Source of the DNA: Eledone cirrhosa
Lineage: Eukaryota
Reading direction: 5' to 3'
Assembly: GCA_964016885.1 (NCBI GenBank)
Contig: OZ024745.1
Location: 29,140,001 to 29,204,000, forward strand
Length of the DNA: 64,000 nt
Shown one piece after another: positions 1 to 59,346 of the stretch; the first letter of the stretch is position 1; every line of letters starts with the position of its first letter. Position numbers and translations under genes: made by a program. The notes below the pieces were generated by a model that saw only the letters and a list, made by a program, of their open reading frames with translations, did no database searches and had not been told where the DNA came from.

Positions 1-2789
1 TATAAACTATAGTAACTTCTATATAAACTATAGTAACTTCTATATAAACTAGGGTAACTTCTATATAAACTATGCTAACTGCTATATAAACTATAGTAAC
101 TGCTATATAAACTATAGTAACTTCTATATAAACTATAGTAACTTCTATATAAACTATGCTAACTTCTATATAAACTATGGTAACTTCTATATAAACTATG
201 GTAACTTCTATATAAACTATGCTAACTTCTATATAAACTATAGTAACATCTATATAAACTATAGTAACTTCTATATAAACTATGGTAACTGCAATATAAA
301 CTATGGTAACATCTATATAAACTATGCTAACTTCTATATAAACTAAAGTAACATCTATATAAACTTTAGTAACTTCTATATAAACTATAGTAACATCTAT
401 ATAAACTATAGTAACTGCTATATAAACTATGGTAACTGCAATATAAACTATACTAACTTCTATATAAACTATAGTAGCTTCTATATAAACTATAGTAACT
501 TCTATATAAACTATAGTAACTGTTATATAAACTATGTTAACATCTATATAAACTATGCTAACTTCTATATAAGCTAAAGTAACATCTATATAAACTTTAG
601 AAACTTCTATATAAACTATAGTAACATCTATATAAACTATAGTAACTGTTATATAAACTATGCTAACTTCTATATAAACTATAGTAACATCTATATAAAC
701 TATAGTAACTGCTATATAAACTATAGTAATTTCTATATAAACTATAGTATCTTCTATATAAACTATGCTAACTTCTATATAAACTATAGTAACTTCTATA
801 TAAACTATAGTAACTGCTATATAAACTATGGTAACTTCTATATAAACTATGCTAACTTCTATATAAACTATAGTAACTTCTATATAAACTATAGTAACAT
901 CTATATAAACTATAGTAACTTCTATATAAACTATGGTAACTTCTATATAAACTATAGTAAGTTCTATATAAACTATAGTAACTTCTATATAAACTATAGT
1001 AACTTCTATATAAACTATAGTAACTTCTATATAAACTATAGTAACTTCTATATAAACTATAGTAACATCTATATAAACTATAGTAACTTCTATATAAACT
1101 ATGGTAACTTCTATATAAACTATGCTCACTTCTATATAAACTATAGTAACTTCTATATAAACTATGGTAACTTCTATATAAACTATAGTAACTTCTATAT
1201 AAACTATAGTAACTGCTATATAAACTATAGTAACTGCTATATAAACTATAGTAACTTCTATATAAACTATAGTAACTTCTTTATAAACTATGGTAACTTC
1301 TATATAAACTATAGTAACTTCTATATAAGCTATAGTAACTTCTATATAAACTATGGTAACTTCTATATAAACTATGCTAACTTCTATATAAACTATGCTA
1401 ACTTCTATATAAACTATGGTAACTTCTATATAAACTATGCTAACTTCTATATAAACTATAGTAACTTCTATATAAACTATAGTAACTACTATATAAACTA
1501 TAGTAACTTCTATATAAACTACAGTAACTTCTATATAAACTATGCTAACTGCTATATAACCTATAGTAACTGCTATATAAACTATAGTAGCTGCTATATA
1601 AACTATAGTAACTTCTATATAAACTATAGTAACTGCTATATATACTATAGTAACTTCTATATAAACTATGCTAACTGCTATATAAACTATAGTAACTGCT
1701 ATATAAACTATAGTAACTTCTATATAAACTATAGTAACTGCAAGATAAACTATAGTAAGTGCTATATAAACTATAGTAACTTCTATATAAACTATAGTAA
1801 CTTCTATATAAACTATAGTAACTGCTATATAAACTATAGTAACTGCTATATAAACTATAGTAACTTCTATATAAACTATAGTAACTTCTATATAAACTAT
1901 GCTAACTTCTATATAAACTATGGTAACTTCTATATAAACTATGCTAACTTCTATATAAACTATAGTAACATCTATATAAACTATAGTAACTGCTATATAA
2001 ATTATGGTAACTTCTATATAAACGATGGTAACTTTTATATAAACTATGCTAACTTCTATATAAACTATAGTAACTGCTATATAAACTATAGTAACTGCTA
2101 TATAAACTATAGTAACTTCTATATAAACTATAGTAACTTCTATATAAACTATAGTAACTGCTATATAAACTATAGTAACTGCTATGTAAACTATAGTAAC
2201 TGCTATATAAACTATGGTAACTTCTATATAAACTATGCTAAGTTCTATATAAACTATTGTAACATCTATATAAACTATAGTAACTGCTATATAAACTATA
2301 GTAACTTCTATATAAACTATAGTAACTTCTATATAATCTATAGTAACATCTATATAAACTATAGTAACTTCTATATAAACTATGGTAACTTCTATATAAA
2401 CTATAGTAACTTCTATATAAACTATAGTAACTTCTATATAAATTATAGTAACTTCTATATAAACTATAGTAACTTCTATATAAACTATAGTAACATCTAT
2501 ATAAACTATAGTAACTTCTATATAAACTATGGTAACTTCTATATAAACTATGCTCACTTCTATATAAACTATGGTAACTTCTATATAAACTATAGTAACT
2601 TCTATATAAACTATGGTAACTTCTATATAAACTATGCTAACTGCTATATAAACTATAGTAACTGCTATATAAACTATAGTAACTTCTATATAAACTATAG
2701 TAACTTCTATATAAACTATGCTCACTTCTATATAAACTATAGTAACTTCTATATAAACTATGGTAACTTCTATATAAACTATAGTAACT

Positions 2790-5700
2790 TCTATATGAAC
2801 TATAGTAACTTCTATATAAAGTATAGTAACTTCTATATAAACTAGGGTAACTTCTATATAAACTATGCTAACTGCTATATAAACTATAGTAACTGCTATA
2901 TAAACTATAGTAACTTCTATATAAACTATAGTAACTTCTATATAAACTATGCTAACTTCTATATAAACTATGGTAACTTCTATATAAACTATGGTAACTT
3001 CTATATAAACTATGGTAACTTCTATATAAACTATAGTAACATCTATATAAACTATAGTAACTTCTATATAAACTATGGTAACTGCAATATAAACTATGCT
3101 AACTTCTATATAAACTAAAGTAACATCTATATAAACTTTAGTAACTTCTATATAAACTATAGTAACATCTATATAAACTATAGTAACTGCTATATAAACT
3201 ATGGTAACTGCAATATAAACTATACTAACTTCTATATAAACTATAGTAGCTTCTATATAAACTATAGTAACTTCTATATAAACTATAGTAACTGCTATAT
3301 AAACTATGGTAACATCTATATAAACTATGCTAACTTCTATATAAGCTAAAGTAACATCTATATAAACTTTAGAAACTTCTATATAAACTATAGTAACATC
3401 TATATAAACTATAGTAACTGTTATATAAACTATGCTAACTTCTATATAAACTATAGTAACATCTATATAAACTATAGTAACTGCTATATAAACTATAGTA
3501 ACTTCTATATAAACTATAGTAACTTCTATATAAACTATGCTAACTTCTATATAAACTATAGTAACTTCTATATAAACTATAGTAACTGCTATATAAACTA
3601 TGGTAACTTCTATATAAAGTATGCTAACTTCTATATAAACTATAGTAACTTCTATATAAACTAGTGTAACTTCTATATAAACTATAGTAAGTTCTATATA
3701 AACTATAGTAACTTCTATATAAACTATAGTAACTTCTATATAAACTATAGTAACTTCTATATAAACTATAGTACCTTCTATATAAACTATAGTAACATCT
3801 ATATAAACTATAGTAACTTCTATATAAACTATGGTAACTTCTATATAAACTATGCTCACTTCTATATAAACTATAGTAACTTCTATATAAACTATAGTAA
3901 CTGCTATATAAACTATAGTAACTGCTATATAAACTATAGTAACTTCTATATAAACTATAGTAACTTCTTTATAAACTATGGTAACTTCTATATAAACTAT
4001 AGTAACTTCTATATAAGCTATAGTAACTTCTATATAAACTATGGTAACTTCTATATAAACTATGCTAACTTCTATATAAACTATGCTAACTTCTATATAA
4101 ACTATAGGAACTTCTATATAAACTATAGTAACATCTATATAAACTATGCTAACTTCTATATAAACTATAGGAACTTCTATATAAACTATAGTAACATCTA
4201 TATAAACTATGCTAACTTCTATATAAACTATAGTAACTTCTATATAAACTATAGTAACTGCAAGATAAACTATAGTAAGTGCTATATAAACTATAGTAAC
4301 TTCTATATAAACTATAGTAACTTCTATATAAACTATAGTAACTGCTATATAAACTATAGTAACTGCTATATAAACTATAGTAACTTCTATATAAACTATA
4401 GTAACTTCTATATAAACTATGCTAACTTCTCTATAAACTATGTTAACTTCTATATAAACTATGCTAACTTCTATATAAACTATAGGAACTTATATATAAA
4501 CTATAGTAACATCTATATAAACTATGCTAACTTCTATATAAACTATGCTAACTGCTATATAAACTATGCTAACTTCTATATAAACTATGCTAACTTCTAT
4601 ATAAACTATGGTAACTTCTATATAAACTATGCTAACTTCTATATAAACTATAGTAACTTCTATATAAACTATAGTAACTACTATATAAACTATAGTAACT
4701 TCTATATAAACTACAGTAACTTCTATATAAACTATGCTAACTGCTATATAAACTATAGTAACTGCTATATAAACTATAGTAGCTGCTATATAAACTATAG
4801 TAACTTCTATATAAACTATAGTAACTGCTATATATACTATAGTAACTTCTATATAAACTATGCTAACTGCTATATAAACTATAGTAACTGCTATATAAAC
4901 TATAGTAACTTCTATATAAACTATAGTAACATCTATATAAACTATAGTAACTTCTATATAAACTATGGTAACTTCTATATAAACTATGCTCACTTCTATA
5001 TAAACTATAGTAACTTCTATATAAACTATGGTAACTTCTATATAAACTATAGTAACTTCTATATAAACTATAGTAACTGCTATATAAACTATAGTAACTG
5101 CTATATAAACTATAGTAACTTCTATATAAACTATAGTAACTTCTTTATAAACTATGGTAACTTCTATATAAACTATAGTAACTTCTATATAAGCTATAGT
5201 AACTTCTATATAAACTATGGTAACTTCTATATAAACTATGCTAACTTCTATATAAACTATGCTAACTTCTATATAAACTATAGGAACTTCTATATAAACT
5301 ATAGTAACATCTATATAAACTATGCTAACTTCTATATAAACTATGCTAACTTCTATATAAACTATGGTAACTTCTATATAAACTATGCTAACTTCTATAT
5401 AAACTATAGTAACTTCTATATAAACTATAGTAACTACTATATAAACTATAGTAACTTCTATATAAACTACAGTAACTTCTATATAAACTATGCTAACTGC
5501 TATATAAACTATAGTAACTGCTATATAAACTATAGTAGCTGCTATATAAACTATAGTAACTTCTATATAAACTATAGTAACTGCTATATATACTATAGTA
5601 ACTGCTATATAAACTATGCTAACTGCTATATAAACTATAGTAACTGCTATATAAACTATAGTAACTTCTATATAAACTATAGTAACTGCAAGATAAACTA

Positions 5701-8700
5701 TAGTAAGTGCTATATAAACTATAGTAACTTCTATATAAACTATAGTAACTTCTATATAAACTATAGTAACTGCTATATAAACTATAGTAACTGCTATATA
5801 AACTATAGTAACTTCTATATAAACTATAGTAACTTCTATATAAACTATGCTAACTTTTATATAAACTATGGTAACTTCTATATAAACTATGCTAACTTCT
5901 ATATAAACTATAGTAACATCTATATAAACTATAGTAACTGCTATATAAATTATGGTAACTTCTATATAAACGATGGTAACTTTTATATAAACTATGCTAA
6001 CTTCTATATAAACTATAGTAACTGCTATATAAACTATAGTAACTTCTATATAAACTATAGTAACTTCTATATAAACTATAGTAACTGCTATATAAACTAT
6101 AGTAACTGCTATATAAACTATAGTAACTGCTATATAAACTATGGTAACTTCTATATAAACTATGCTAAGTTCTATATAAACTATTGTAACATCTATATAA
6201 ACTATAGTAACTGCTATATAAACTATAGTAACTTCTATATGAACTATAGTAACTTCTATATAAAGTATAGTAACTTCTATATAAACTAGGGTAACTTCTA
6301 TATAAACTATGCTAACTGCTATATAAACTATAGTAACTGCTATATAAACTATAGTAACTTCTATATAAACTATAGTAACTTCTATATAAACTATGCTAAC
6401 TTCTATATAAACTATGGTAACTTCTATATAAACTATGGTAACTTCTATATAAACTATGGTAACTTCTATATAAACTATAGTAACATCTATATAAACTATA
6501 GTAACTTCTATATAAACTATGGTAACTGCAATATAAACTATGGTAACATCTATATAAACTATGCTAACTTCTATATAAACTAAAGTAACATCTATATAAA
6601 CTTTAGTAACTTCTATATAAACTATAGTAACATCTATATAAACTATAGTAACTGCTATATAAACTATGGTAACTGCAATATAAACTATACTAACTTCTAT
6701 ATAAACTATAGTAGCTTCTATATAAACTATAGTAACTTCTATATAAACTATAGTAACTGCTATATAAACAATGGTAACATCTATATAAACTATGCTAACT
6801 TCTATATAAGCTAAAGTAACATCTATATAAACTTTAGAAACTTCTATATAAACTATAGTAACATCTATATAAACTATAGTAACTGTTATATAAACTATGC
6901 TAACTTCTATATAAACTATAGTAACATCTATATAAACTATAGTAACTGCTATATAAACTATAGTAACTTCTATATAAACTATAGTAACTTCTATATAAAC
7001 TATGCTAACTTCTATATAAACTATAGTAACTTCTATATAAACTATAGTAACTGCTATATAAACTATGGTAACTTCTATATAAAGTATGCTAACTTCTATA
7101 TAAACTATAGTAACTTCTATATAAACTAGTGTAACTTCTATATAAACTATAGTAAGTTCTATATAAACTATAGTAACTTCTATATAAACTATAGTAACTT
7201 CTATATAAACTATAGTAACTTCTATATAAACTATAGTACCTTCTATATAAACTATAGTAACATCTATATAAACTATAGTAACTTCTATATAAACTATGGT
7301 AACTTCTATATAAACTATGCTCACTTCTATATAAACTATAGTAACTTCTATATAAACTATAGTAACTGCTATATAAACTATAGTAACTGCTATATAAACT
7401 ATAGTAACTTCTATATAAACTATAGTAACTTCTTTATAAACTATGGTAACTTCTATATAAACTATAGTAACTTCTATATAAGCTATAGTAACTTCTATAT
7501 AAACTATGGTAACTTCTATATAAACTATGCTAACTTCTATATAAACTATGCTAACTTCTATATAAACTATAGGAACTTCTATATAAACTATAGTAACATC
7601 TATATAAACTATGCTAACTTCTATATAAACTATAGGAACTTCTATATAAACTATAGTAACATCTATATAAACTATGCTAACTTCTATATAAACTATAGTA
7701 ACTTCTATATAAACTATAGTAACTGCAAGATAAACTATAGTAAGTGCTATATAAACTATAGTAACTTCTATATAAACTATAGTAACTTCTATATAAACTA
7801 TAGTAACTGCTATATAAACTATAGTAACTGCTATATAAACTATAGTAACTTCTATATAAACTATAGTAACTTCTATATAAACTATGCTAACTTCTCTATA
7901 AACTATGTTAACTTCTATATAAACTATGCTAACTTCTATATAAACTATAGGAACTTATATATAAACTATAGTAACATCTATATAAACTATGCTAACTTCT
8001 ATATAAACTATGCTAACTGCTATATAAACTATGCTAACTTCTATATAAACTATGCTAACTTCTATATAAACTATGGTAACTTCTATATAAACTATGCTAA
8101 CTTCTATATAAACTATAGTAACTTCTATATAAACTATAGTAACTACTATATAAACTATAGTAACTTCTATATAAACTACAGTAACTTCTATATAAACTAT
8201 GCTAACTGCTATATAAACTATAGTAACTGCTATATAAACTATAGTAGCTGCTATATAAACTATAGTAACTTCTATATAAACTATAGTAACTGCTATATAT
8301 ACTATAGTAACTTCTATATAAACTATGCTAACTGCTATATAAACTATAGTAACTGCTATATAAACTATAGTAACTTCTATATAAACTATAGTAACATCTA
8401 TATAAACTATAGTAACTTCTATATAAACTATGGTAACTTCTATATAAACTATGCTCACTTCTATATAAACTATAGTAACTTCTATATAAACTATGGTAAC
8501 TTCTATATAAACTATAGTAACTTCTATATAAACTATAGTAACTGCTATATAAACTATAGTAACTGCTATATAAACTATAGTAACTTCTATATAAACTATA
8601 GTAACTTCTTTATAAACTATGGTAACTTCTATATAAACTATAGTAACTTCTATATAAGCTATAGTAACTTCTATATAAACTATGGTAACTTCTATATAAA

Positions 8701-10800
8701 CTATGCTAACTTCTATATAAACTATGCTAACTTCTATATAAACTATAGGAACTTCTATATAAACTATAGTAACATCTATATAAACTATGCTAACTTCTAT
8801 ATAAACTATGCTAACTTCTATATAAACTATGGTAACTTCTATATAAACTATGCTAACTTCTATATAAACTATAGTAACTTCTATATAAACTATAGTAACT
8901 ACTATATAAACTATAGTAACTTCTATATAAACTACAGTAACTTCTATATAAACTATGCTAACTGCTATATAAACTATAGTAACTGCTATATAAACTATAG
9001 TAGCTGCTATATAAACTATAGTAACTTCTATATAAACTATAGTAACTGCTATATATACTATAGTAACTGCTATATAAACTATGCTAACTGCTATATAAAC
9101 TATAGTAACTGCTATATAAACTATAGTAACTTCTATATAAACTATAGTAACTGCAAGATAAACTATAGTAAGTGCTATATAAACTATAGTAACTTCTATA
9201 TAAACTATAGTAACTTCTATATAAACTATAGTAACTGCTATATAAACTATAGTAACTGCTATATAAACTATAGTAACTTCTATATAAACTATAGTAACTT
9301 CTATATAAACTATGCTAACTTTTATATAAACTATGGTAACTTCTATATAAACTATGCTAACTTCTATATAAACTATAGTAACATCTATATAAACTATAGT
9401 AACTGCTATATAAATTATGGTAACTTCTATATAAACGATGGTAACTTTTATATAAACTATGCTAACTTCTATATAAACTATAGTAACTGCTATATAAACT
9501 ATAGTAACTTCTATATAAACTATAGTAACTTCTATATAAACTATAGTAACTGCTATATAAACTATAGTAACTGCTATATAAACTATAGTAACTGCTATAT
9601 AAACTATGGTAACTTCTATATAAACTATGCTAAGTTCTATATAAACTATTGTAACATCTATATAAACTATAGTAACTGCTATATAAACTATAGTAACTTC
9701 TATATGAACTATAGTAACTTCTATATAAAGTATAGTAACTTCTATATAAACTAGGGTAACTTCTATATAAACTATGCTAACTGCTATATAAACTATAGTA
9801 ACTGCTATATAAACTATAGTAACTTCTATATAAACTATAGTAACTTCTATATAAACTATGCTAACTTCTATATAAACTATGGTAACTTCTATATAAACTA
9901 TGGTAACTTCTATATAAACTATGGTAACTTCTATATAAACTATAGTAACATCTATATAAACTATAGTAACTTCTATATAAACTATGGTAACTGCAATATA
10001 AACTATGGTAACATCTATATAAACTATGCTAACTTCTATATAAACTAAAGTAACATCTATATAAACTTTAGTAACTTCTATATAAACTATAGTAACATCT
10101 ATATAAACTATAGTAACTGCTATATAAACTATGGTAACTGCAATATAAACTATACTAACTTCTATATAAACTATAGTAGCTTCTATATAAACTATAGTAA
10201 CTTCTATATAAACTATAGTAACTGCTATATAAACAATGGTAACATCTATATAAACTATGCTAACTTCTATATAAGCTAAAGTAACATCTATATAAACTTT
10301 AGAAACTTCTATATAAACTATAGTAACATCTATATAAACTATAGTAACTGTTATATAAACTATGCTAACTTCTATATAAACTATAGTAACATCTATATAA
10401 ACTATAGTAACTGCTATATAAACTATAGTAACTTCTATATAAACTATAGTAACTTCTATATAAACTATGCTAACTTCTATATAAACTATAGTAACTTCTA
10501 TATAAACTATAGTAACTGCTATATAAACTATGGTAACTTCTATATAAACTATGCTAACTTCTATATAAACTATAGTAACTTCTATATAAACTAGTGTAAC
10601 TTCTATATAAACTATAGTAAGTTCTATATAAACTATAGTAACTTCTATATAAACTATAGTAACTTCTATATAAACTATAGTAACTTCTATATAAACTATA
10701 GTACCTTCTATATAAACTATAGTAACATCTATATAAACTATAGTAACTTCTATATAAACTATGGTAACTTCTATATAAACTATGCTCACTTTTATATAAA
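2790..10800. repeat. Higher-order tandem duplication within the satellite, period 3,465 bp (165 monomers), about 2.3 copies
   Basis: Rare variants recur 3,465 bp apart: CTAGTGTAAC at 3661/7126/10591; CAAGATAAAC at 4261/7726 and 5689/9154; the TTATATATA variant at 4490/7955. Boundaries are approximate. Confidence 0.9.
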
Positions 10801-13599
10801 CTATAGTAACTTCTATATAAACTATGGTAACTTCTATATAAACTATAGTAACTTCTATATAAACTATAGTAACTGCTATATAAACTATAGTAACTGCTAT
10901 ATAAACTATAGTAACTTCTATATAAACTATAGTAACTTCTTTATAAACTATGGTAACTTCTATATAAACTATAGTAACTTCTATATAAGCTATAGTAACT
11001 TCTATATAAACTATGGTAACTTCTATATAAACTATGCTAACTTCTATATAAACTATGCTAACTTCTATATAAACTATGCTAACTTCTATATAAACTATGG
11101 TAACTTCTATATAAACTATGCTAACTTCTATATAAACTATGCTAACTTCTATATAAACTATGCTAACTTCTATATAAACTATGGTAACTTCTATATAAAC
11201 TATGCTAACTTCTATATAAACTATGCTAACTTCTATATAAACTATGCTAACTTCTATATAAACTATGGTAACTTCTATATAAACTATAGTAACTTCTATA
11301 TAAACTATAGTAACTACTATATAAACTATAGTAACTTCTATATAAACTACAGTAACTTCTATATAAACTATGCTAACTGCTATATAAACTATAGTAACTG
11401 CTATATAAACTATAGTAGCTGCTATATAAACTATAGTAACTTCTATATAAACTATAGTAACTGCTATATATACTATAGTAACTTCTATATAAACTATGCT
11501 AACTGCTATATAAACTATAGTAACTGCTATATAAACTATAGTAACTTCTATATAAACTATAGTAACTGCAAGATAAACTATAGTAAGTGCTATATAAACT
11601 ATAGTAACTTCTATATAAACTATAGTAACTTCTATATAAACTATAGTAACTGCTATATAAACTATAGTAACTGCTATATAAACTATAGTAACTTCTATAT
11701 AAACTATAGTAACTTCTATATAAACTATGCTAACTTCTCTATAAACTATGGTAACTTCTATATAAACTATGCTAACTTCTATATAAACTATAGTAACATC
11801 TATATAAACTATAGTAACTGCTATATAAATTATGGTAACTTCTATATAAACGATGGTAACTTCTATATAAACTATGCTAACTTCTATATAAACTATAGTA
11901 ACTGCTATATAAACTATAGTAACTGCTATATAAACTATAGTAACTTCTATATAAACTATAGTAACTTCTATATAAACTATAGTAACTGCTATATAAACTA
12001 TAGTAACTGCTATATAAACTATAGTAACTGCTATATAAACTATGGTAACTTCTATATAAACTATGCTAAGTTCTATATAAACTATAGTAACATCTATATA
12101 AAGTATAGTAACTGCTATATAAACTATAGTAACTTCTATATAAACTATAGTAACTTCTATATAATCTATAGTAACATCTATATAAACTATAGTAACTTCT
12201 ATATAAACTATGGTAACTTCTATATAAACTATAGTAACTTCTATATAAACTATAGTAACTTCTATATAAATTATAGTAACTTCTATATAAACTATAGTAA
12301 CTTCTATATAAACTATAGTAACATCTATATGAACTATAGTAACTTCTATATAAACTATGGTAACTTCTATATAAACTATGCTCACTTCTATATAAACTAT
12401 AGTAACTTCTATATAAACTATGGTAACTTCTATATAAACTCTAGTAACTTCTATATAAACTATGGTAACTTCTATATAAACTATGCTAACTGCTATATAA
12501 ACTATAGTAACTGCTATATAAACTATAGTAACTTCTATATAAACTATAGTAACTTCTATATAAACTATGCTCACTTCTATATAAACTATAGTAACTTCTA
12601 TATAAACTATGGTAACTTCTATATAAACTATAGTAACTTCTATATAAACTATAGTAACTTCTATATAAACTATAGTAACTTCTATATAAACTAGGGTAAC
12701 TTCTATATAAACTATGCTAACTGCTCTATAAACTATAGTAACTGCTATATAAACTATAGTAACTTCTATATAAACTATAGTAACTTCTATATGAACTATG
12801 CTAACTTCTATATAAACTATGGTAACTTCTATATAAACTATGCTAACTTCTATATAAACTATAGTAACATCTATATAAACTATAGTAACTTCTATATAAA
12901 CTATGGTAACTGCAATATAAACTATGGTAACATCTATATAAACTATGCTAACTTCTATATAAACTAAAGTAACATCTATATAAACTTTAGTAACTTCTAT
13001 ATAAACTATAGTAACTTCTATATAAACTATGGTAACTGCAATATAAACTATACTAACTTCTATATAAACTATAGTAGCTTCTATATAAACTATAGTAACT
13101 TCTATATAAACTATAGTAACTGCTATATAAACTATGGTAACATCTATATAAACTATGCTAATTTCTATATAAGCTAAAGTAACATCTATATAAACTTTAG
13201 AAACTTCTATATAAACTATAGTAACATCTATATAAACTATAGTAACTGTTATATAAACTATGCTAACTTCTATATAAACTATAGTAACATCTATATAAAC
13301 TATAGTAACTGCTATATAAACTATAGTAACTTCTATATAAACTATAGTAACTTGTATATAAACTATGCTAACTTCTATATAAACTATAGTAACTTCTATA
13401 TAAACTATAGTAACTGCTATATAAACTATGGTAACTTCTATATAAACTATGCTAACTTCTATATAAACTATAGTAACTTCTATATAAACTATAGTAACAT
13501 CTATATAAACTATAGTAACTTCTATATAAACTATGGTAACTTCTATATAAACTATAGTAAGTTCTATATAAACTATAGTAACTTCTATATAAACTATAG

Positions 13600-45000: not shown

Positions 45001-46250
45001 ATATAAACTATAGTAATTTCTATATAAACTATGGTAACTTCTATATAAACTATGCTAACTTCTATATAAACTATAGGAACTTCTATATAAACTATAGTAA
45101 CTTCTATATAAACTATAGTAACATCTATATAAACTATAGTAACTGCTATATAAACTATAGTAACTGCTATATAAACTATTAACTGCTATATAAACTATAG
45201 TAACATCTATATAAACTATAGTAACTTCTATATAAACTATAGTAACTTTTATATAAACTATGCTAACTTCTATATAAACTATAGTAACTTTTATATAACT
45301 ATGCTAACTTCTATATAAACTATAGTAACTTCTATATAAACTATAGTAACTTTTATATAAACTATGCTAACTTCTATATAAACTATAGTATCTTCTATAT
45401 AAACTATAGTAACTTCTATATAAACTATAGTAACTTCTATATAAACTATAGTAACTTTTATGTAAACTATGCTAAGTTCTATATAAACTATAGTAACTTT
45501 TATATAAACTATACTAACTTCTATATAAACTATAGTTACTTTCTATATAAACTATAGTAACTTTTATATAAACTATGCTAACTTCTATATAATCTATAGT
45601 AACTTCTATATAAACTATAGTAACTTTTATGTAAACTATGCTAACTTCTATATAAACTATAGTAACTGCTATATAAACTATAGTAACTGCTATATAAACT
45701 ATAGTAACTTCTATATAAACTATAGTATCTTCTATATAAACTATAGTAACTTCTATATAAACTATAGTAACATCTATATAAACTATAGTAACTGCTATAT
45801 CAATTATGCTAACTTCTATATAAACTATAGTAACTGCTATATAAACTATAGTAACTTCTATATAAACTATAGTAACATCTATATAAACTATAGTAACTGC
45901 TATGTCAATTATGCTAACTTCTATATAAACTATAGTAACTGCTATATAAACTATAGTAACTTCTATATAAACTATGCTAACTTCTATATAAACTATAGTA
46001 ACTGCTATATAAACTATAGTAACTTCTATATAAACTATCGTAACTGCTATATAAAGTATAGTAACATCTATATAAACTATAGTAACTGCTATATCAACTA
46101 TGCTAACTTCTATATAAACTATAGTAACATCTATATAAACTATGCTAACTTCTATATAAACTATAGTAACTTTTACATAAACTATGCTAACTTCTATATA
46201 AACTATAGTAACTTTTATATAAACTATGCTAACTTCTATATAAACTATAG
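41930..46250. repeat. Higher-order tandem duplication within the satellite, period 2,159 bp (103 monomers -4 nt), 2 copies, with a nested 355-bp duplication
   Basis: AAACAATAG at 42281/44440, CTATGTCAAT at 43741/45900, 1-nt deletion monomer TTTATATAAC at 43131/45290. Nested ACTATTAACT at 42661/43016. Confidence 0.9.
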
Positions 46251-46269
46251 TAACTTCTATATAAACTAT

Positions 46270-49200
46270 AGTAACTTCTATATAAACTATAGTAACTTCT
46301 ATATAATCTATAGTAACATCTATATAAACTATAGTAACTTCTATATAAACTATGGTAACTTCTATATAAACTATAGTAATTTCTATATAAACTATAGTAA
46401 CTTCTATATAAATTATAGTAACTTCTATATAAACTATAGTAACATCTATATAAACTATAGTAACTTCTATATAAACTATGGTAACTTCTATATAAACTAT
46501 GCTCACTTCTATATAAACTATAGTAACTTCTATATAACCTATGGTAACTTCTATATAAACTATAGTAACTTCTATATAAACTATGGTAACTTCTATATAA
46601 ACTATGCTAACTGCTATATAAACTATAGTAACTGCTATATAAACTATAGTAACTTCTATATAAACTATAGTAACTTCTATATAAACTATAGTAACTTCTA
46701 TATAAACTATGCTCACTTCTATATAAACTATAGTAACTTCTATATAAACTATGGTAACTTCTATATAAACTATAGTAACTTCTATATAAACTATAGTAAC
46801 TTCTATATAAACTATAGTAACTTCTATATAAACTAGGGTAACTTCTATATAAACTATAGTAACTGCTATATAAACTATAGTAACTGCTATATAAACTATA
46901 GTAACTTCTATATAAACTATAGTAACTTCTATATAAACTATGCTAACTTCTATATAAACTATGGTAACTTCTATATAAACTATGCTAACTTCTATATAAA
47001 CTATAGTAACATCTATATAAACTATAGTAACTGCTATATAAATTATGGTAACTTCTATATAAACGATGGTAACTTCTATATAAACTATGCTAACTTCTAT
47101 ATAAACTATAGTAACTGCTATATAAACTATAGTAACTGCTATATAAACTATAGTAACTTCTATATAAACTATAGTAACTTCTATATAAACTATAGTAACT
47201 TCTATATAAACTATAGTAACTTCTAAAGAAACTATAGTAACATCTATATAAACTATAGTAACTTCTATATAAACTATGGTAACTTCTATATAAACTATGC
47301 TCACTTTTATATAAACTATAGTAACTTCTATATAAACTATGGTAACTTCTATATAAACTATAGTAACTTCTATATAAACTATAGTAACTGCTATATAAAC
47401 TATAGTAACTTCTATATACACTATGCTAACTGCTATATATACTATAGTAATTGCTATATAAACTATAGTAACTTCTATATAAACTATAGTAACTTCTATA
47501 TAAACTATAGTAACTTCTATATAAGCTATAGTAACTTCTATATAAACTATAGTAACTGCTATAGACACTATGCTAACTGCTATATAAACTATAGTAACTT
47601 CTATATAAACTATGGTAACTTCTATATAAACTATGCTAACTTCTATATAAACTATAGGAACTTCTATATAAACTATAGTAACTTCTATATAAAGTATAGT
47701 AACTTCTATATAAACTATGGTAACTTCTATATAAACTATAGTAACTTCTATATAAAATATAGTAACATCTATGTGAACTATAATAACTGCTATATAAACT
47801 ATAGTAACTGCTATATAAACTATTGTAACATCTATATAAACTATAGTAACTTCTATATAAACTATAGTAACATCTATATAAACTATAGTAACTGCTATAT
47901 AAACTATGCTAACTGCTATATAAACTATAGTAACATCTATATAAACTATAGTAACTTCTATATAAACTATGCTAACTTCTATATAAACTATGCTAACTTC
48001 TATATAAACTATAGGAACTTCTATATAAACTATAGTAACTTCTATATAAACTATAGTAACTTCTATATAAACTATAGTAACTACTATATAAACTATAGTA
48101 ACTTCTATATAAACTACAGTAACTTCTATATAAACTATGCTAACTGCTATATAAACTATAGTAACTGCTATATAAACTATAGTAGCTGCTATATAAACTA
48201 TAGTAACTTATATATAAACTATAGTAACTGCTATATATACTATAGTAACTTCTATATAAACTATGCTAACTGCTATATAAACTATAGTAACTGCTATATA
48301 AACTATAGTAACTGCTATATAAACTATAGTAACTTCTATATAAACTATAGTAACTGCAAGATAAACTATAGTAAGTGCTATATAAACTATAGTAACTTCT
48401 ATATAAACTATAGTAACTTCTATATAAACTATAGTAACTGCTATATAAACTATAGTAACTGCTATATAAACTATCGTAACTTCTATATAAACTATAGTAA
48501 CATTTATATAAACTATAGTAACTGCTATATAAATTATGGTAACTTCTATATAAACGATGGTAACTTCTATATAAACTATGCTAACTTCTATATAAACTAT
48601 AGTAACTGCTATATAAACTATAGTAACTGCTATATAAACTATAGTAACTTCTATATAAACTATAGTAACTTCTATATAAACTATAGTAACTGCTATATAA
48701 ACTATAGTAACTTCTATATAAACTATAGTAACTGCTATATAAACTATGGTAACTTCTATATAAACTATGCTAACTTCTATATAAACTATAGTAACTGCTA
48801 TATAAACTATAGTAACTGCTATATAAACTATAGTAACTGCTATATAAACTATAGTAACTTCTATATCAACTATAGTAACTTCTATATAAACTATAGTAAC
48901 TTCTATATACACTACAGTAACTTCTATATAAACTATAGTAACTTCTATATAAACTATGGTAACTTCTATATAAACTATGCTAACTTCTATATAAACTATA
49001 GTAACTTCTAGATAAACTATGGTAACTTCTATATACACTATAGTAACTTCTATATAAACTATAGTAACTGCTATATAAACTATAGTAACTTCTATATAAA
49101 CTATGCTAAATTCTATATAAACTATGCTAACTTCTATATAAACTATAGTAACTTCTATATAAACTATAGTAACATCTATATAAACTATAGTAACTTCTAT

Positions 49201-52200
49201 ATAAACTATGCTAACATCTATATAAACTATGGTAACTTCTATATAAACTATAGTAACGTCTATATAAACTATAGTAACTGCTATATAAACTATAGTAACT
49301 TCTATATAAACTATAGTAACTTCTATATAAACTATGGTAACTTCTATATAAACTATAGTAACTTCTATATAAACTATAGTAACTTCTATATAAACTATAG
49401 TAAATTCTATATAAACTATGCTAACTTCTATATAAACTATAGTAACTGCTATATAAACTATAGTAACTTCTATATAAACTATAGTAACTTCTATATAAAC
49501 TATAGTAACTTCTATATAAACTATGCTAACTTCTATATAAACTATGCTAACTTCTATATAAACTATAGTAACTTCTATATAAACTATGGTAACTTCTATA
49601 TGAACTATAGTAACTTCTATATAAACTATAGTAACATCTATATAAACTATAGTAACTTCTATATAAACTATAGTAGCTTCTATATAAACTATGCTAACTT
49701 CTATATAAACTATAGTAACATCAATTATAAACTATGCTAACTTCTATATAAACTATAGTAACATCTATATAAACTATAGTAACTTCTATATAAACTATGC
49801 TAACTTCTATATAAACTATAGTAACTTCTATATAAACTATAGTAACTGCTATATAAACTATAGTATCTTCTATATAAACTATAGTAACTTCTATATAAAC
49901 TATAGTAACATCTATATAAACTATAGTAACTGCTATATCAACTATGCTAACTGCTATATAAACTATAGTAACATCTATATAAACTATAGTAACTGCTATA
50001 TAAACTATGCTAACTTCTATATAAACTATAGTAACTGCTATATAAACTATAGTAACTTCTATATAAACTATAGTATCTTCTATATAAACTATAGTAACTT
50101 CTATATAAACTATAGTAACATCTATATAAACTATAGTAACTGCTATATCAACTATGCTAACTGCTATATAAACTATAGTAACATCTATATAAACTATAGT
50201 AACTGCTATATAAACTATGCTAACTTCTATATAAACTATAGTAACTTCTATATAAAGTATAGTAACTTCTATATAAACTATAGCAACTGCTATATAAGCT
50301 ATAGTAACTTCTATATAAACTATAGTAACTTCTATATAAACTATAGTAACTTCTATATTAACTATGCTAACTTCTATATAAACTATGCTAACTTCTATAT
50401 AAACTATGGTAACTTCTATATAAACTATAGTAACTTCTATATAAACTATAGTAACTGCTATATAAACTATAGTAACTGCTATATAAACTATAGTAACTTC
50501 TATATAAACTATAGTAAATTCTATATAAACTATGGTAACTTCTATATAAACTATAGTAACTTCTATATAAACTATAGTAACTTCTATATAAACTATGGTA
50601 ACTTCTATATAAACTATAGTAACTGCTATATAAACTATGCTAACTTCTATATAAACTATAGTAACTTCTATATAAACTATGCTAACTTCTATATAAACTA
50701 TGCTAACTTCTATATAAACTATAGTAACTTCTATATAAACTATGCTAACTTCTATATAAACTATGCTAACTTCTATATAAACTATGCTAACTTCTATATA
50801 GACTATGCTAACTTCTATATAAACTATGGTAACTTCTATATAAACTATGCTAACTTCTATATAAACTATGCTAACTTCTATATAGACTATGCTAACTTCT
50901 ATATAAACTATGCTAACTTCTATATAAACTATGCTAACTTCTATATAAACTATGGTAACTTCTATATAAACTATGCTAACTTCTATATAAACTATGCTAA
51001 CTTCTATATAAACTATGGTAACTTCTATATAAACTATAGTAACTTCTATATAAACTATGCTAACATCTATATAAACTATAGTAACTTCTATATAAACTAT
51101 AGTAACTTCTATATAAACTATGCTAACTTCTATATAAACTATGCTAACTTCTATATAAACTATGCTAACTTCTATATAAACTATGCTAACTTCTATATAA
51201 ACTATGCTAACTTCTATATAAATTATAGTAACTTCTATATAAACTATGCTAACTTCTATATAAACTATGCTAACTTCTATATAAACTATGGTAACTTCTA
51301 TATAAACTATGCTAACTTCTATATAAACTATAGTAACTTCTATATAAACTATGCTAACTTCTATATAAACTATGCTAACTTCTATATAAATTATATGAAC
51401 TTCTATATAAACTACAGTAACTGCTATATAAACTATAGTAACTTCTATATAAACTACAGTAACTTCTATATAAACTATAGTAACTTCTATATAAACTATA
51501 GTAACTTCTATATAAACTACAGTAACTTCTATATAAACTATGCTAACTGCTATATAAACTATAGTAACTGCTATATAAACTATAGTAACTTCTATATAAA
51601 CTATAGTAACTGCTATATATACTATAGTAACTTCTATATAAACTATGCTAACTGCTATATAAACTATAGTAACTGCTATATAAACTATAGTACCTGCTAT
51701 ATAAACTATAGTAACTTCTATATAAACTACAGTAACTGCAAGATAAACTATAGTAAGTGCTATATAAACTATAGTAACATCTATATAAACTATAGTAACT
51801 GCTATATAAACTATAGTAACTGCTATATAAACTATAGTAACTTCTATATAAACTATAGGAACGTCTATATAAACTATAGTAACTTCTATATAAACTACAG
51901 TAACTTCTATATAAACTATAGTAACTTCTATATAAACTATAGTAACTTCTATAATAAACTATAGTAACTTCTATATAAACTATAGTAACTTCTATATAAA
52001 CTATAGTAACTTCTATATAAACTATTGTAACTGCTATATAAACTATAGTAACTTCTATATAAACTATAGTAACTTCTATATAAACTATAGTAACATCTAT
52101 ATAAACTATAGTAACTGCTATATAAATTATGGTAACTTCTATATAAACTATGGTAACTTCTATATAAACTATGCTAACTTCTATATAAACTATAGTAACT

Positions 52201-53290
52201 GCTATATAAACTATGGTAACTTCTATATAAACTATGCTAACTTCTATATAAACTATAGTAACTTCTATATAAACTATGGTAACTTCTATATAAACTATAG
52301 TAACTTCTATATAAACTATAGTAACTCCTATATAAACTATAGTAACTTCTATATAAACTATAGTAACTTCTATATAAACTATTCTAACTTCTATATAAAC
52401 TATGGTAACTTCTATATAAACTATAGTAACTTCTATATAAACTATAGTAACTGCTATATAAACTATAGGAACTTCTATATAAACTATAGTAACTTCTATA
52501 TAAAGTATAGTAACTTCTATATAAACTATAGTTACTTCTATATAAACTATAGTAACTACTATATAAACTATAGTAACCTCTATATAAACTATAGTAACTG
52601 CTATAAAAACTATAGTAACTTCTATATAAATTATAGTAACTTCTATATAAACTATGGTAACTTCTATATAAACTATGCTCACTTCTATATAAACTATAGG
52701 AACTTCTATATAAACTATAGTAACTTCTATATAAACTATAGTAACATCTATATAAACTATAGTAACTTCTATATAAACTATAGTAACTTCTATATAAACT
52801 ATGCTAACTTCTATATAAACTATGCTAACTTCTATATAAACTATAGTAACTTCTATATAAACTATGGTAACTTCTATATAAACTATGGTAACTTCTATAT
52901 AAACTAAGCTAACTTCTATATAAACTATAGTAACTTCTATATAAACTATAGTAACTTCTATATAAACTATAGTAACTGCTATATAAACTATAGTAACTTC
53001 TATATAAACTATGCTAACTTCTATATAAACTAGGGTAACTGCTATATAAACTATAAGAACTTCTATATAAACTATAGTAACTACTATATAAACTATAGTA
53101 ACTTCTATATAAACTATAGGAACTGCTATATAAACTATGGTAACTTCTATATAAACTATAGTAACTGCTATATAAATTATAGTAACTTCTATATAAACTA
53201 TAGTAACTTCTATATAAACTATGCTAACTGCTATATATACTATAGTAATTGCTATATAAACTATAGTAACTTCTATATAAACTATAGTAA
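46270..53290. repeat. Non-adjacent second copy of satellite block about 25470-34840, lacking the 2,121-bp duplication
   Basis: Shared rare variants: TATAATCTA near 25500/46307 and pseudo-ORF 26966/47773 (+20,807); CATCAATTATAAAC near 31015/49720; AATAAA insertion monomer at 33519/51953 and CAAGATA at 33305/51739 (+18,434). Confidence 0.88.
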
Positions 53291-56200
53291 CTTCTATATA
53301 AACTATGGTAACTTCTATATAAACTATAGTAACTTCTATATAAACTACAGTAACATCTATATGAACTATAGTAACTGCTACATCAACTATGCTAACTTCT
53401 ATATAAACTATAGTAACTACTATATAAACTATAGTAACTTCTATATAAACTACAGTAACTTCTATATAAACTATAGGAACTGCTATATAAACTATGGTAA
53501 CTTCTATATAAACTATAGTAACTGCTATATAAATTATAGTAACTTCTATATAAACTATAGTAACTTCTATATAAACTATGCTAACTGCTATATATACTAT
53601 AGTAATTGCTATATAAACTATAGTAACTTCTATATAAACTATAGTAACTTCTATATAAATTATAGTAACTTCTATATAAACTATAGTAACTGCTATATAA
53701 ACTATGCTAAATGCTATATAAACTATAGTAACATCTATATAAACTATAGTAACTTCTATATAAACTATAGTAACTGCTATATAAACTATAGTAACATCTA
53801 TATCAACTATAGTAACATCTATATAAACTATAGTAACTTCTATATAAACTATAGTTACTGCTATATAAACTATAGTAACATCTATATAAACTATAGTAAC
53901 TGCTATATAAACTATAGTAACTGCTATATAACCTATAGTAACTTCTATATAAACTATAGTAGCTTCTATATAAACTATAGTAACTTCTATATAAACTATA
54001 GTAACTGCTATATAAACTATAGTAACTTCTATATAAACTATGCTAACTTCTATATAAACTATAGTAACTTCTATATAAACTATAGTACTTGCTATATAAA
54101 CTATAGTAACATCTATATAAACTATAGTAACTGTTATATAAACTATGCTAACTTCTATATAAACTATAGTAACTTCTATATAAATTTTAGTAACTTCTAT
54201 ATAAATTATAGTAACTTCTATATAAACTATAGTAACATCTATATAAACTATAGTAACTTCTATATAAACTATAGTAACTTTTATATAAACTATGCTAACT
54301 TCTATATAAACTATAGTAACATCTACATAAACTATAGTAACTGCTATATAAACTATGCTAACTTCTATATAAACTATAGTATCTTCTATATAAACTATAG
54401 TAACTTCTATATAAACTATAGTAACTGCTATATCAACTATGCTAACTTCTATATATACTATAGTAACTTCTATATAAACTATAGTAACTTCTATATAAAC
54501 TATAGTAACTGCTATATAAACTATAGTAACTTCTATATAAACTATAGTAACTTCTATATAAACTATAGTAACTGCTATATACACTATGCTAACTGCTATA
54601 TAAACTATAGTAACTTCTATATAAACTATGGTAACTTCTATATACACTATGCTAACTTCTATATACACTATGCTAACTTCTATATAAACTATAGGAACTT
54701 CTATATAAACTATAGTAACTTCTATATAAAGTATAGTAACTTCTATATAAACTATGGTAACTTCTATATAAACTATAGTAACTTCTATATAAACTATAGT
54801 AACATCTATATGAACTATAGTAACTGCTACATCAACTATGCTAACTTCTATATAAACTATAGTAACTTCTATATAAACTATGGTAACTTCTATATAAACT
54901 ATAGTAACTTTTATATAAACTATGCTAACTTCTATATAAACTATAGTAACATCTATATAAACTATAGTAACTGCTATATAAACTATGCTAACTTCTATAT
55001 AAACTATAGTAACTGCTATATAAATTATAGTAACTTCTATATAAACTATAGTAACTTCTTTATAAACTATAGTAACATCTATATAAACTATGCTAACTTC
55101 TATATAAACTATGCTAACTTCTATATAAACTATAGGAACTTCTATATAAACTATAGTAACTTCTATATAAAGTATAGTAACTTCTATATAAACTATAGTA
55201 ACTTCTATATAAACTATAGTAACTACTATATAAACTATAGTAACATCTATATAAACTATAGTAACTTCTATATAAACTATAGTAACTACTATATAAACTA
55301 TAAGAACTTCTATATAAACTATAGTAACTACTATATAAACTATAGTAACTTCTATATAAACTACAGTAACTTCTATATAAACTATAGGAACTGCTATATA
55401 AACTATGGTAACTTCTATATAAACTATAGTAACTGCTATATAAATTATAGTAACTTCTATATAAACTATAGTAACTTCTATATAAACTATGCTAACTGCT
55501 ATATATACTATAGTAATTGCTATATAAACTATAGTAACTTCTATATAAACTATAGTAACTTCTATGTAAACTATAGTAACTGCTATATATACCATAGTAA
55601 CTGCTATATAAACTATAGTAACTTCTATATAAACTATAGTAACTTCTATATAAATTATAGTAACTTCTATATAAACTATAGTAACTGCTATATAAACTAT
55701 GCTAAATGCTATATAAACTATAGTAACATCTATATAAACTATAGTTACTGCTATATAAACTATAGTAACATCTATATAAACTATAGTAACTTCAATATAA
55801 ACTATAGTAACTGCTATATAAACTATAGTAACATCTATATCAACTATAGTAACATCTATATAAACTATAGTAACTTCTATATAAACTATAGTTACTGCTA
55901 TATAAACTATAGTAACATCTATATAAACTATAGTAACTGCTATATAAACTATAGTAACTGCTATATAACCTATAGTAACTTCTATATAAACTATAGTAGC
56001 TTCTATATAAACTATAGTAACTTCTATATAAACTATAGTAACTGCTATATAAACTATAGTAACTTCTATATAAACTATGCTAACTTCTATATAAACTATA
56101 GTAACTTCTATATAAACTATAGTAACTGTTATATAAACTATAGTAACTTCTATATAAACTATAGTAACATCTATATAAACTATAGTAACTTCTATATAAA

Positions 56201-57637
56201 CTATAGTACTTGCTATATAAACTATAGTAACATCTATATGAACTATAGTAACATCTATATAAACTATAGTAACTGTTATATAAACTATGCTAACTTCTAT
56301 ATAAACTACAGTAACTTCTATATAAATTTTAGTAACTTCTATATAAATTATAGTAACTTCTATATAAACTATTGTAACATCTATATAAACTATAGTAACT
56401 TCTATATAAACTATAGTAACTTTTATATAAACTATGCTAACTTCTATATAAACTATAGTAACATCTACATAAACTATAGTAACTGCTATATAAACTATGC
56501 TAACTTCTATATAAACTATAGTATCTTCTATATAAACTATAGTAACTTCTATATAAACTATAGTAACTGCTATATCAACTATGCTAACTTCTATATATAC
56601 TATAGTAACTTCTATATAAACTATAGTAACTTCTATATAAACTATAGTAACTGCTATATAAACTATAGTAACTTCTATATAAACTATAGTAACTTCTATA
56701 TAAACTATAGTAACTGCTATTTACACTATGCTAACTGCTATATAAACTATAGTAACTTCTATATAAACTATGGTAACTTCTATATAAACTATGCTAACTT
56801 CTATATAAACTATAGGAACTTCTATATAAACTATAGTAACTTCTATATAAACTATAGTAACTGCTATTTACACTATGCTAACTGCTATATAAACTATAGT
56901 AACTTCTATATAAACTATGGTAACTTCTATATAAACTATGCTAACTTCTATATAAACTATAGGAACTTCTATATAAACTATGCTAACTTCTATATAAACT
57001 ATAGTAACATCTATATGAATTATAGTAACTGCTACATCAACTATGCTAACTTCCATATAAACTATAGTAACTTCTATATAAACTATGGTAACTTCTATAT
57101 AAACTATAGTAACTTTTATATAAACTATGCTAACTTCTATATAAACTATAGTAACATCTATATAAACTATAGTAACTGCTATATAAACTATGCTAACTTC
57201 TATATAAACTATAGTAACTGCTATATAAACTATAGTAACTTCTATATAAACTATAGTATCTTCTATATAAACTATAGTAACTTCTATATAAACTATAGTA
57301 ACTGCTATATCAACTATGCTAACTTCTATATATACTATAGTAACTTCTATATAAACTATAGTAACTTCTATATAAACTATAGTAACTGCTATATAAACTA
57401 TAGCAACTTCTATATAAACTATAGTAACTTCTATATAAACTATAGTAACTGCTATATACACTATAGGAACAGCTATATAAACTATGGTAACTTCTATATA
57501 AACTATAGTAACTGCTATATAAATTATAGTAACTTCTATATAAACTATGGTAACCTGTAATGATGACATTCTACAAAGAATTCAGTATGTTCTGTGTCAG
57601 TATTCAGTTTTCATTGTCATCATTCCTTGCTTTCCAG

Positions 57638-57806
57638 GTGCAATAGTCAGGGAACAAAGAAGGCTGTTGGAAGTTTTGCAAAGAATTTTGGCCGTTCTTT
57701 ATTAGCTGATTTCTCTGATCATTACCTCTCTGACTTTGTATTACATGGGACATCAAGCTCACAGTTTCATCGCAAGATGAACAAAGACCTACAACAAGCA
57801 GTTCAG
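57638..57806 (+). CDS. FNIP: Folliculin-interacting protein (FNIP1/2-like), internal coding exon A, first visible exon
   Basis: Acceptor TTCCTTGCTTTCCAG|G, donor CAG|GTAATA, 169 nt (1 nt + 56 codons). Encodes CNSQGTKKAVGSFAKNFGRSLLADFSDHYLSDFVLHGTSSSQFHRKMNKDLQQAVQ, matching the recalled FNIP C-terminal motif NFGRSLLGGY...PDFVLQG...DLSHAVQ. Confidence 0.93.
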
Positions 57807-58110
57807 GTAATAACTAGTGTTTGGTAACTAGTGTTTAATTCCTAATGTGTGATAGCTAGAGTTTGATAACTACTGTAATTACTTTGTAATAACTAGTGTG
57901 TAATAACTAGTGTGTAATAACTAGTGTTTAAAAACTAGTCTGTAATAACTAGTATGTGATAACTAGTGTTTAATAAGGAGTGTGTAATAACTAGTGTTTA
58001 ATAACTAGTCTGTAATAACTAGTGTTTAATAAGGAGTGTGTAATAACTAGTCTGTAATAACTAGTATGTGATAACTAGTGTTTAATAACTAGTGTGTGAT
58101 AACTACTATA
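57807..58110. repeat. 14-bp minisatellite (GTAATAACTAGTGT)n, about 21 degenerate copies
   Basis: Units such as GTAATAACTAGTGT, TTAATAACTAGTCT, GTGATAACTAGTGT, TTAATAAGGAGTGT. The first unit begins at the GT of the exon A donor. Confidence 0.95.
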
Positions 58111-59284: not shown

Positions 59285-59346
59285 CATTCAATCCTGGATG
59301 AACCTATCACAGAGGCTGTGTGTATCTTGGCAAACACTGATGAATG
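59285..59346 (+). CDS. FNIP: FNIP coding exon B
   Basis: CATCAG|CAT...GAATG|GTACGT, 62 nt. Encodes HSILDEPITEAVCILANTDE(W); recalled vertebrate FNIP1 has [21 protein letters not shown]. Phase matches exons A and C. Confidence 0.95.

What the first reader, a model, noticed from the sequence alone, without database searches (positions are those of the whole stretch)
1..57806. A pure satellite of more than 57 kb apparently fills an intron of an intact FNIP gene and stops 83 nt from the exon
Seen: the array ends at 57554 and a phase-2 internal exon starts at 57638; this exon and four more splice into an intact FNIP C-terminus. Established: FNIP1/2 are large proteins (over 1,000 aa) that partner folliculin in Rag/mTORC1 and AMPK signalling, so most of the gene must lie upstream. 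Satellite-filled giant introns are best known from Drosophila Y-loop genes (kl-3, kl-5, ORY), which need dedicated RNA-binding proteins. Inference: Pol II transcribes about 2,740 or more monomers in each pre-mRNA of a broadly expressed nutrient-sensing gene, which could act as a transcription delay, a nuclear RNA scaffold or a length-polymorphic expression modifier.
Basis: partly seen in the sequence, partly recalled or inferred. Interest (0 to 1): 0.8.

Follow-up and report, generated by a model that had tools for sequence, protein, structure and literature searches.

The report
Giant private repeat inside octopus intron
A 21-base unit repeated about 3,600 times fills a 76-kb intron of an intact, spliced octopus FNIP gene; it likely ballooned recently, and equally large private repeats are common in this genome, so it is probably tolerated filler rather than a special regulatory device.

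Summary
Observation confirmed and extended. The array is 75,221 bp (about 3,581 units, no gap), starts 17.7 kb before the window and fills 98.5% of a 76,367-bp phase-2 intron of a complete 20-exon octopod FNIP gene. A contig of run X1 joins the upstream exon directly to 57638. The unit is single-locus: 273 of 273 genome-wide dimer hits lie in this array. Read depth in two runs fits roughly the assembled length; a related organism keeps the array's end but shows depth for only a few units. Three quarters of the units lie in near-identical kilobase blocks, so growth is recent. It is not exceptional here: 8 of 118 probes fell in other arrays of 9 kb or more, two spanning about 100 kb on the same chromosome. 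Best reading: a runaway single-locus intronic minisatellite that splicing tolerates, like human CACNA1C TRACT but larger. Nothing supports a delay, scaffold or Y-loop role.

The parts
1..57554 (+). 3' three quarters of a 75,221-bp head-to-tail array of a 21-bp unit (whole array G000:C5:29122334-29197554; it begins 17,667 bp before the window); single locus; inside FNIP coding intron 15 of 19
3088..10773 (+). example of a recent internal block duplication: 4,221 bp at 3088-7308 matches 6553-10773 with 2 mismatches (lag 165 units)
25453..52939 (+). long-range internal duplication: blocks within 25453-34505 recur within 46260-52939 (lags 878-991 units, 1-4 mismatches per 1.3-3.0 kb)
57555..57637 (+). 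83-nt unique intron end with pyrimidine tract and CAG acceptor; present in DNA runs X2 (same organism) and X5 (related organism)
57638..57806 (+). FNIP coding exon 16 (169 nt); joined in run X1 to exon 15 (ends G000:C5:29121270) and to exon 17
57808..58105 (+). second, small 14/28-bp minisatellite starting at the donor of exon 16
59285..59346 (+). FNIP coding exon 17 (62 nt)
59891..60017 (+). FNIP coding exon 18 (127 nt)
61622..61737 (+). FNIP coding exon 19 (116 nt)
62162..62228 (+). FNIP last coding exon with stop codon

Best explanation
This is a single-locus 21-bp minisatellite that fills a spliced FNIP intron and likely grew from a few units to 75 kb recently by repeated duplication of kilobase blocks, being tolerated rather than selected. 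Shown: the array, the intact gene around it, the exon 15-16 junction, the single locus, the near-identical internal blocks. Inferred: a short seed array existed before the split from organism B; unequal exchange or template switching copied blocks of 100-1,000 units in tandem; Pol II reads through the array; the spliceosome defines the two flanking exons from their own short unique ends (1,063 bp on the 5' side, 83 bp on the 3' side) and ignores the array because its many AG dinucleotides lack a strong pyrimidine tract and it holds no AG|GT ratchet site; the cost is perhaps 20-75 minutes of extra transcription (recalled Pol II rates of 1-4 kb/min). The same process appears to act at many loci of this genome, each with its own unit.
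For: Complete 2,823-nt reading frame over 20 exons, 19 of 19 introns GT-AG, no internal stop, about 93% identical to three Octopus proteins. X1 contig (2,947 nt, depth 58) has the last 30 nt of exon 15 before 57638 and exon 17 behind 57806. 273 of 273 dimer hits are in this array; 0 near-matches in 1.18 Mb of probes. 76% of units lie in 19 duplicated blocks; the 13 longest differ at 22 of 30,724 bases, against about 4% from organism B in coding DNA (my estimate from word share 0.29). Summed depth over the array edge: X2 28,800, X3 54,500, X5 (organism B) about 140, with single-copy depth 2.5 for X2 and 22.6 for X5; a simulation gives 21,000-46,000 for 75 kb, 2,600-3,800 for 10 kb, and 144 for 150 bp at X5's depth. 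X5 contig carries the array's last letters in front of the unique flank. Base rate: 8 of 118 probes hold an array of 9 kb or more, with different units; 26.8% of probed DNA is tandem repeat. No AGGT in the array; at most 13 of 20 pyrimidines before any of 2,688 AGs, 16 of 20 at the real acceptor.
Against: Neutrality is argued from abundance and fast turnover, not tested. X1 is not on record as RNA, comes from another sample (S1) than the DNA runs (S2) and may carry a shorter allele; X1-X4 are one study and may be the assembly's own source, so they are not independent. The depth estimate rests on assembled contigs, an inferred coverage of 1.4 and my own unitig model, and the tool warns that summed depth is no copy number; X3 exceeds the simulated range. 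Organism B's array could be long but more than 15% diverged or dropped from its contigs. Long TRACT alleles do lower CACNA1C expression in fibroblasts (PMC13131567), so length effects are possible. A poly(A)-signal-creating variant is not clearly depleted (10 against a median of 15), which neither shows nor excludes selection.
Confidence: 0.7

Rival explanations
1. The array is a cis-acting, length-variable modifier of FNIP expression (slower elongation, premature termination or transcription-factor binding), as shown for the human CACNA1C TRACT repeat.
For: It makes up 53% of the 142.5-kb coding span. Each unit carries TATATAAA, a TATA-box-like word, and 3,330 TATAAA words lie on the sense strand (TATAAA as a weak poly(A) variant is recalled). 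Long TRACT alleles associate with lower host-gene expression in fibroblasts (PMC13131567, passages).
Against: No expression or population data. Such words are expected in any AT-rich unit. The close relative appears to lack the expansion, and similar arrays are widespread. TRACT length had no effect in 47 of 49 tissues.
Confidence: 0.12
2. The assembly inflated the array: the near-identical blocks are false duplications and the true array is much shorter.
For: Two of the 13 longest block pairs are identical over 1.3 and 2.8 kb, and the array is longer than one accurate long read.
Against: No N gap; 11 of the 13 pairs differ by 1-4 bases; indel variants recur in register; unit composition drifts along the array. 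Depth in X2 and X3 fits 75 kb and is about ten times what 10 kb would give.
Confidence: 0.08
3. The nascent satellite RNA acts as a nuclear scaffold or needs dedicated RNA-binding proteins, as in Drosophila Y-loops or the chicken LL2R lumpy loops.
For: About 3,600 copies of one word per pre-mRNA offer multivalent binding; 351 GGTAAC donor-like words occur in the array. Precedents: PMC6508621 and 10.64898/2026.03.19.712899 (abstracts).
Against: The intron is 76 kb, not megabases; strong donor words are few (27 GTAAG, 0 AGGTAA); folding is barely better than shuffles (z -1.8); the expansion looks young and lineage-specific, leaving little time for a dedicated partner.
Confidence: 0.05
4. The 75-kb allele is a rare, mildly harmful variant of this individual; normal FNIP mRNA comes from shorter alleles.
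For: X1 (junction) and X2/X3 (depth) are different samples; block duplications look very recent.
Against: Depth in sample S2 fits a full 75 kb per haploid genome rather than half; FNIP is single-copy and intact.
Confidence: 0.05

Closest known systems
TRACT, the 30-bp intronic VNTR of human CACNA1C (PMC13131567; abstract, introduction, part of methods and passages read)
   Same: Single locus, intronic, short unit with many sequence variants, thousands of copies, lineage-specific expansion, growth by tandem duplication of long runs of units suggested.
   Different: TRACT is 3 to over 30 kb within a gene with other large introns; this array is 75 kb, fills 98.5% of its intron and ends 83 nt from the exon. 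TRACT has measured expression effects; none is known here.
Human-specific single-locus VNTR expansions (PMC8327921, passages read)
   Same: Unique to one place, mean unit about 40 bp, 61.5% of 467 intronic, expanded in one lineage.
   Different: Here arrays of 9 kb or more filled 8 of 118 probes of the genome, and three followed spanned 22, 99 and 105 kb.
Drosophila Y-loop genes kl-3 and kl-5 (PMC6508621, PMC11207136; abstracts and outlines read)
   Same: Tandem repeat makes up nearly all of an intron and is presumably transcribed and spliced out.
   Different: Those hold megabases of simple satellite, over 99% of the locus, are transcribed over about 90 hours in spermatocytes and need Blanks and Heph; this is one 76-kb intron with a private 21-mer in a conserved signalling gene.
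Chicken LL2R repeat of lampbrush lumpy loops (10.64898/2026.03.19.712899, abstract read)
   Same: Locus-specific tandem array transcribed by Pol II on one strand.
   Different: LL2R is its own non-coding unit driven by a retrotransposon promoter, rich in donor sites and poorly spliced; this array is inside a coding gene whose flanking exons are joined.
Human 'midisatellite' at 1p36 (recalled from memory; look-up failed)
   Same: Recalled as a single-locus array of a roughly 40-bp unit reaching hundreds of kilobases.
   Different: Not verified here; not recalled as filling an intron of a conserved gene.

Membership tests
FNIP1/2 (folliculin-interacting protein) | FNIP_N, FNIP_M and FNIP_C regions in order in one reading frame | tested here: met
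   FNIP_C on the five window exons, FNIP_M at C5:29112557-29118680, all 941 residues of the O. bimaculoides protein placed in order, open frame of 940 aa
FNIP1/2 (folliculin-interacting protein) | spliced transcript across the large intron | tested here: met
   X1 contig joins exon 15, 16 and 17; run type not on record, one sample
Single-locus intronic minisatellite (VNTR, TRACT type) | head-to-tail unit of about 10-100 bp | tested here: met
   21-bp unit, 3,581 units
Single-locus intronic minisatellite (VNTR, TRACT type) | confined to one locus | tested here: met
   273 of 273 exact dimer hits in this array; diverged copies elsewhere only sampled (0 in 1.18 Mb)
Single-locus intronic minisatellite (VNTR, TRACT type) | copy number varies between individuals | not testable with these tools
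   other individuals were offered only as RAD runs; X6 laid 0 reads. Between species the length appears to differ
Single-locus intronic minisatellite (VNTR, TRACT type) | effect on host gene expression (TRACT) | not testable with these tools
   no expression or genotype data
Drosophila Y-loop type intron gigantism | megabase introns, over 99% of the locus | tested here: not met
   intron 76,367 bp; array 53% of the coding span
Drosophila Y-loop type intron gigantism | simple satellites shared across the genome | tested here: not met
   private 21-mer found only here; that Y-loop satellites occur elsewhere in the fly genome is recalled
Drosophila Y-loop type intron gigantism | dedicated RNA-binding proteins and visible loop | not testable with these tools
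   needs cytology and genetics
Recursive splicing intron | AG|GT ratchet sites with pyrimidine tract inside the intron | tested here: not met
   0 AGGT in the array
Multi-locus (centromeric type) satellite family | same unit in many arrays or on several chromosomes | tested here: not met
   all hits at one place, one strand

The most novel reading that the evidence does not exclude
This octopod genome carries thousands of giant minisatellites, each with its own private unit and many inside introns of ordinary genes, which change length by hundreds-fold between close species and act as fast-evolving dials on gene output; the FNIP array would be one such dial on a nutrient-sensing gene. The abundance part is fairly well supported (8 of 118 probes, about 200 Mb by extrapolation); the regulatory part is untested.
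Probability: 0.12. Interest if true: 0.75.

Novelty: new member of a known kind. Interest (0 to 1): 0.4.

Why it matters
As a single case it shows that a conserved gene splices across 75 kb of pure short-unit repeat with only 83 unique bases before the exon, and that such an intron can apparently grow several hundred-fold within the short time that separates two close relatives. That makes it a clean natural test of whether intron length or repeat content changes gene output, since short and long versions can be compared. The wider lead is genomic: roughly 3-13% of this 3-Gb genome seems to lie in private arrays of 9 kb or more. If many are intronic, minisatellite runaway is an overlooked driver of octopod intron and genome size, which the papers I could read ascribe to transposons, enlarged introns and simple repeats without describing such arrays.

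Tried and rejected
No RNA holder was listed as such by the run search. X1 showed no contig on the 45 array bases laid; a part without cover is no evidence. RAD run X6 laid 0 reads: no test. No long reads were available. RNA folding of 300 nt: z -1.82, 3 of 200 shuffles as good: no structure claimed. No fixed higher-order repeat: short-lag unit identity 0.13-0.17 against 0.127 by chance. A strict collapse of adjacent duplications removed only 4 blocks (3,581 to 3,038 units), so the duplication history was not rebuilt. Selection against harmful words: not shown. Host genes for the 99-kb and 105-kb arrays were not found: flanks were mostly transposon frames and 0 of 6 frames tested from them hit Pfam. 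For the C4 array the homologue P0043 covers only one side and the Pfam hit is below cut-off. My first exon ends were off by one and three upstream ends were imprecise; corrected. Earlier scan notes: none for this genome, none by words, one unrelated phage look-alike. The midisatellite paper was not held. Supplements of the papers were not read and may list large tandem repeats in octopus genomes.
Full report
Observation. The window's first 57,554 bases are one 21-bp tandem array (2,740.8 copies, 91% matches). An exon begins at 57638, 83 nt after the array, and five exons splice in frame to a stop. All five match Pfam FNIP_C in order. The first exon is 96% identical to Octopus bimaculoides and Argonauta FNIP, so the genome is an octopod; I did not identify it further.

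The rest of the gene. The window is G000:C5:29140001-29204000 and the exon is single-copy. I fetched the 200 kb upstream. The array starts at C5:29122334, is 75,221 bp long and has no N; the only N run in 264 kb lies over 110 kb upstream of it. All 941 residues of the O. bimaculoides protein map in order on the plus strand. The model has 20 coding exons, 19 of 19 introns GT-AG, 940 aa with no internal stop; intron 15 is 76,367 bp, the others 421-26,925 bp; coding span 142,546 bp. Identity to three Octopus proteins is 92.8-93.6% (three exon ends there slightly off). The array fills 98.5% of the intron. The 1,063 bp on its 5' side hold an 881-bp element with terminal inverted repeats between TA dinucleotides (the Tc1/mariner label is recalled) and about 120 bp of a dispersed repeat that is cut off where the array begins.

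Splicing. The run search returned 8 runs, 5 holding the large exon, none on record as RNA. Of 4 runs laid on 57555-57807, X1 gave a 2,947-nt contig (depth 58) covering exactly 57638-57806, with the last 30 nt of exon 15 in front and exon 17 behind; X2 gave the genomic form; X5 a related genomic form; X6 nothing. So the exon 15-16 junction exists. Limits: one contig, one sample, run type unknown, same study as the DNA runs and possibly the assembly's source, and a different sample from the one that shows the long array.

Is the length real? On the left edge, summed contig depth jumps from about 240 on the dispersed repeat to 28,800 (X2) and 54,500 (X3) on the array, against single-copy depth 2.5 in X2. 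Simulating unitigs from the assembled array at an inferred coverage of 1.4 gave 21,000-46,000 for 75 kb, 8,000-15,000 for 30 kb and 2,600-3,800 for 10 kb. This is rough (my model, inferred coverage, X2 and X3 one sample) but argues against a strongly inflated assembly. No long reads were available.

One locus, recent growth. An exact dimer of the unit has 273 hits genome-wide, all forward, and 273 inside the array; no near-match in 1.18 Mb of probes. There are 202 unit types, the commonest 28.5%, and no fixed higher-order period. 76% of units lie in 19 duplicated blocks of 0.5-4.2 kb; the 13 longest differ at 22 of 30,724 bases, 0.07%. Organism B (run X5) shares 0.29 of the words of the large exon (about 4% divergence by my arithmetic). 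Its contig carries the array's last letters before the unique 3' flank, but summed depth on the array is about 140 at single-copy depth 22.6, which the simulation matches with about 150 bp. So a short seed likely predates the split and most of the 75 kb is much younger. A long but diverged or dropped array in B is not excluded.

How common is this here? I requested 120 evenly spaced 10-kb probes on C1-C24 and got 118 (20 on C5, 60 on C1-C4, 38 on smaller chromosomes; not random, small contigs not sampled). 26.8% of the probed DNA is tandem repeat; 8 of 118 probes (6.8%, 95% interval 3-13%) hold one array of 9 kb or more, with units of 47, 30, 36, 79, 16, 7, 38 and 16 bp; two more probes are wholly tandem but split into several records. 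I followed 3 of the 8. Their unit words give 343, 716 and 1,117 hits, all forward, the first 100 of each at one place. They span C4:34987238-35009253 (22 kb), C5:80936174-81040971 (105 kb) and C5:2940424-3039632 (99 kb) (parts of the interiors not fetched). The C4 array lies about 60 nt from a GT donor, with a phase-compatible open exon on its far side; RNA support was not checked. Host genes for the other two were not found. Extrapolated, about 200 Mb, or 2,000-8,000 arrays at a mean of 100-25 kb. The FNIP array is therefore not even the largest on its chromosome.

Mechanism. Shown: array, intact gene, junction, single locus, block duplications. Inferred: growth by unequal exchange or template switching; read-through by Pol II; splicing by recognition of the flanking exons. 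The array has 2,688 AGs but none with more than 13 of 20 pyrimidines before it (real acceptor 16), no AGGT, 5 AATAAA, 27 GTAAG. No depletion of harmful variants could be shown and RNA folding is unremarkable. I put tolerated runaway at 0.7, a TRACT-like length effect at 0.12, assembly inflation at 0.08, an RNA scaffold at 0.05 and a rare harmful allele at 0.05.

Comparison. Closest is TRACT in human CACNA1C: intronic, single-locus, 30-bp unit, 3 to over 30 kb, long alleles lowering expression in fibroblasts and not in 47 other tissues (PMC13131567; part 1 of 6 and passages). Single-locus lineage-specific VNTRs are often intronic (PMC8327921, passages). Drosophila kl-3 and kl-5 have megabases of simple satellite and dedicated proteins (PMC6508621, PMC11207136, abstracts and outlines); scale and repeat type do not match. 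LL2R is a non-coding unit (abstract). Octopus papers report 14.7% simple repeats and enlarged introns in O. minor (PMC6279123, passages) and a median intron of 2,467 bp in O. vulgaris (PMC10700109, passage); word look-ups in PMC9068888, PMC13652810, PMC13282606 (also part 1 of 3 read) and PMC12692304 showed no passage on giant intronic arrays. Searches listed no paper on this array or on giant private minisatellites in cephalopods; the library holds open-access papers only and supplements were not read.

Verdict. Real, spliced, single-locus and recent; a large new member of the intronic minisatellite kind. The more valuable lead is the genome-wide abundance of private giant arrays. Interest 0.4.

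Noticed in passing
G000:C5:80936174-81040971 (L046, L100-L104): A 105-kb array of a 30-bp unit whose minus strand carries a perfect splice-donor consensus in about 92% of units (295-317 per 10 kb in 4 of 4 stretches), so roughly 3,200 donors in a row. If it lies in a minus-strand intron it resembles the donor-rich LL2R repeat; host gene not found.
   Followed up: partly
G000:C4:34987238-35009253 (L071, L095-L097): A 22-kb 36-bp array about 60 nt from an exon donor of a minus-strand coiled-coil gene (weak CDK5RAP2-like Pfam hit below cut-off), with a phase-compatible exon beyond it; a second likely intronic giant array.
   Followed up: partly
G000:C5:2940424-3039632 (L035, L108-L111) and L107: A 99-kb 47-bp array, with a separate 33-bp array of at least 9.9 kb ending 10 kb upstream of it.
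   Followed up: partly
L121, L129, L145, L154, L165, L078, L136: Further probes lying wholly in tandem arrays (units 79, 16, 7, 38, 16 bp and two compound arrays); lengths and gene context unknown.
   Followed up: no
window 57808-58105: A small 14/28-bp minisatellite starts at the donor of exon 16 and repeats its GTAATA word 9 times, so the exon sits between two different minisatellites; X1 uses the first donor.
   Followed up: partly
G000:C5:29049786-29050984, 29058532-29059766, 29042975-29043034: The first coding exon of FNIP is present twice in tandem (flanks 87% identical, both with a GT donor) and once as a partial inverted copy; possible alternative first exon.
   Followed up: no
G000:C5:29009496-29024653: A 15-kb degenerate (TA)n array upstream of the FNIP gene; a 200-base N run lies just before it.
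   Followed up: no
G000:C5:29122215-29122333 (L025:1066-1188): The array begins exactly where a dispersed repeat is cut off; a shared six-letter word one unit-length apart hints that the seed arose at this junction.
   Followed up: partly
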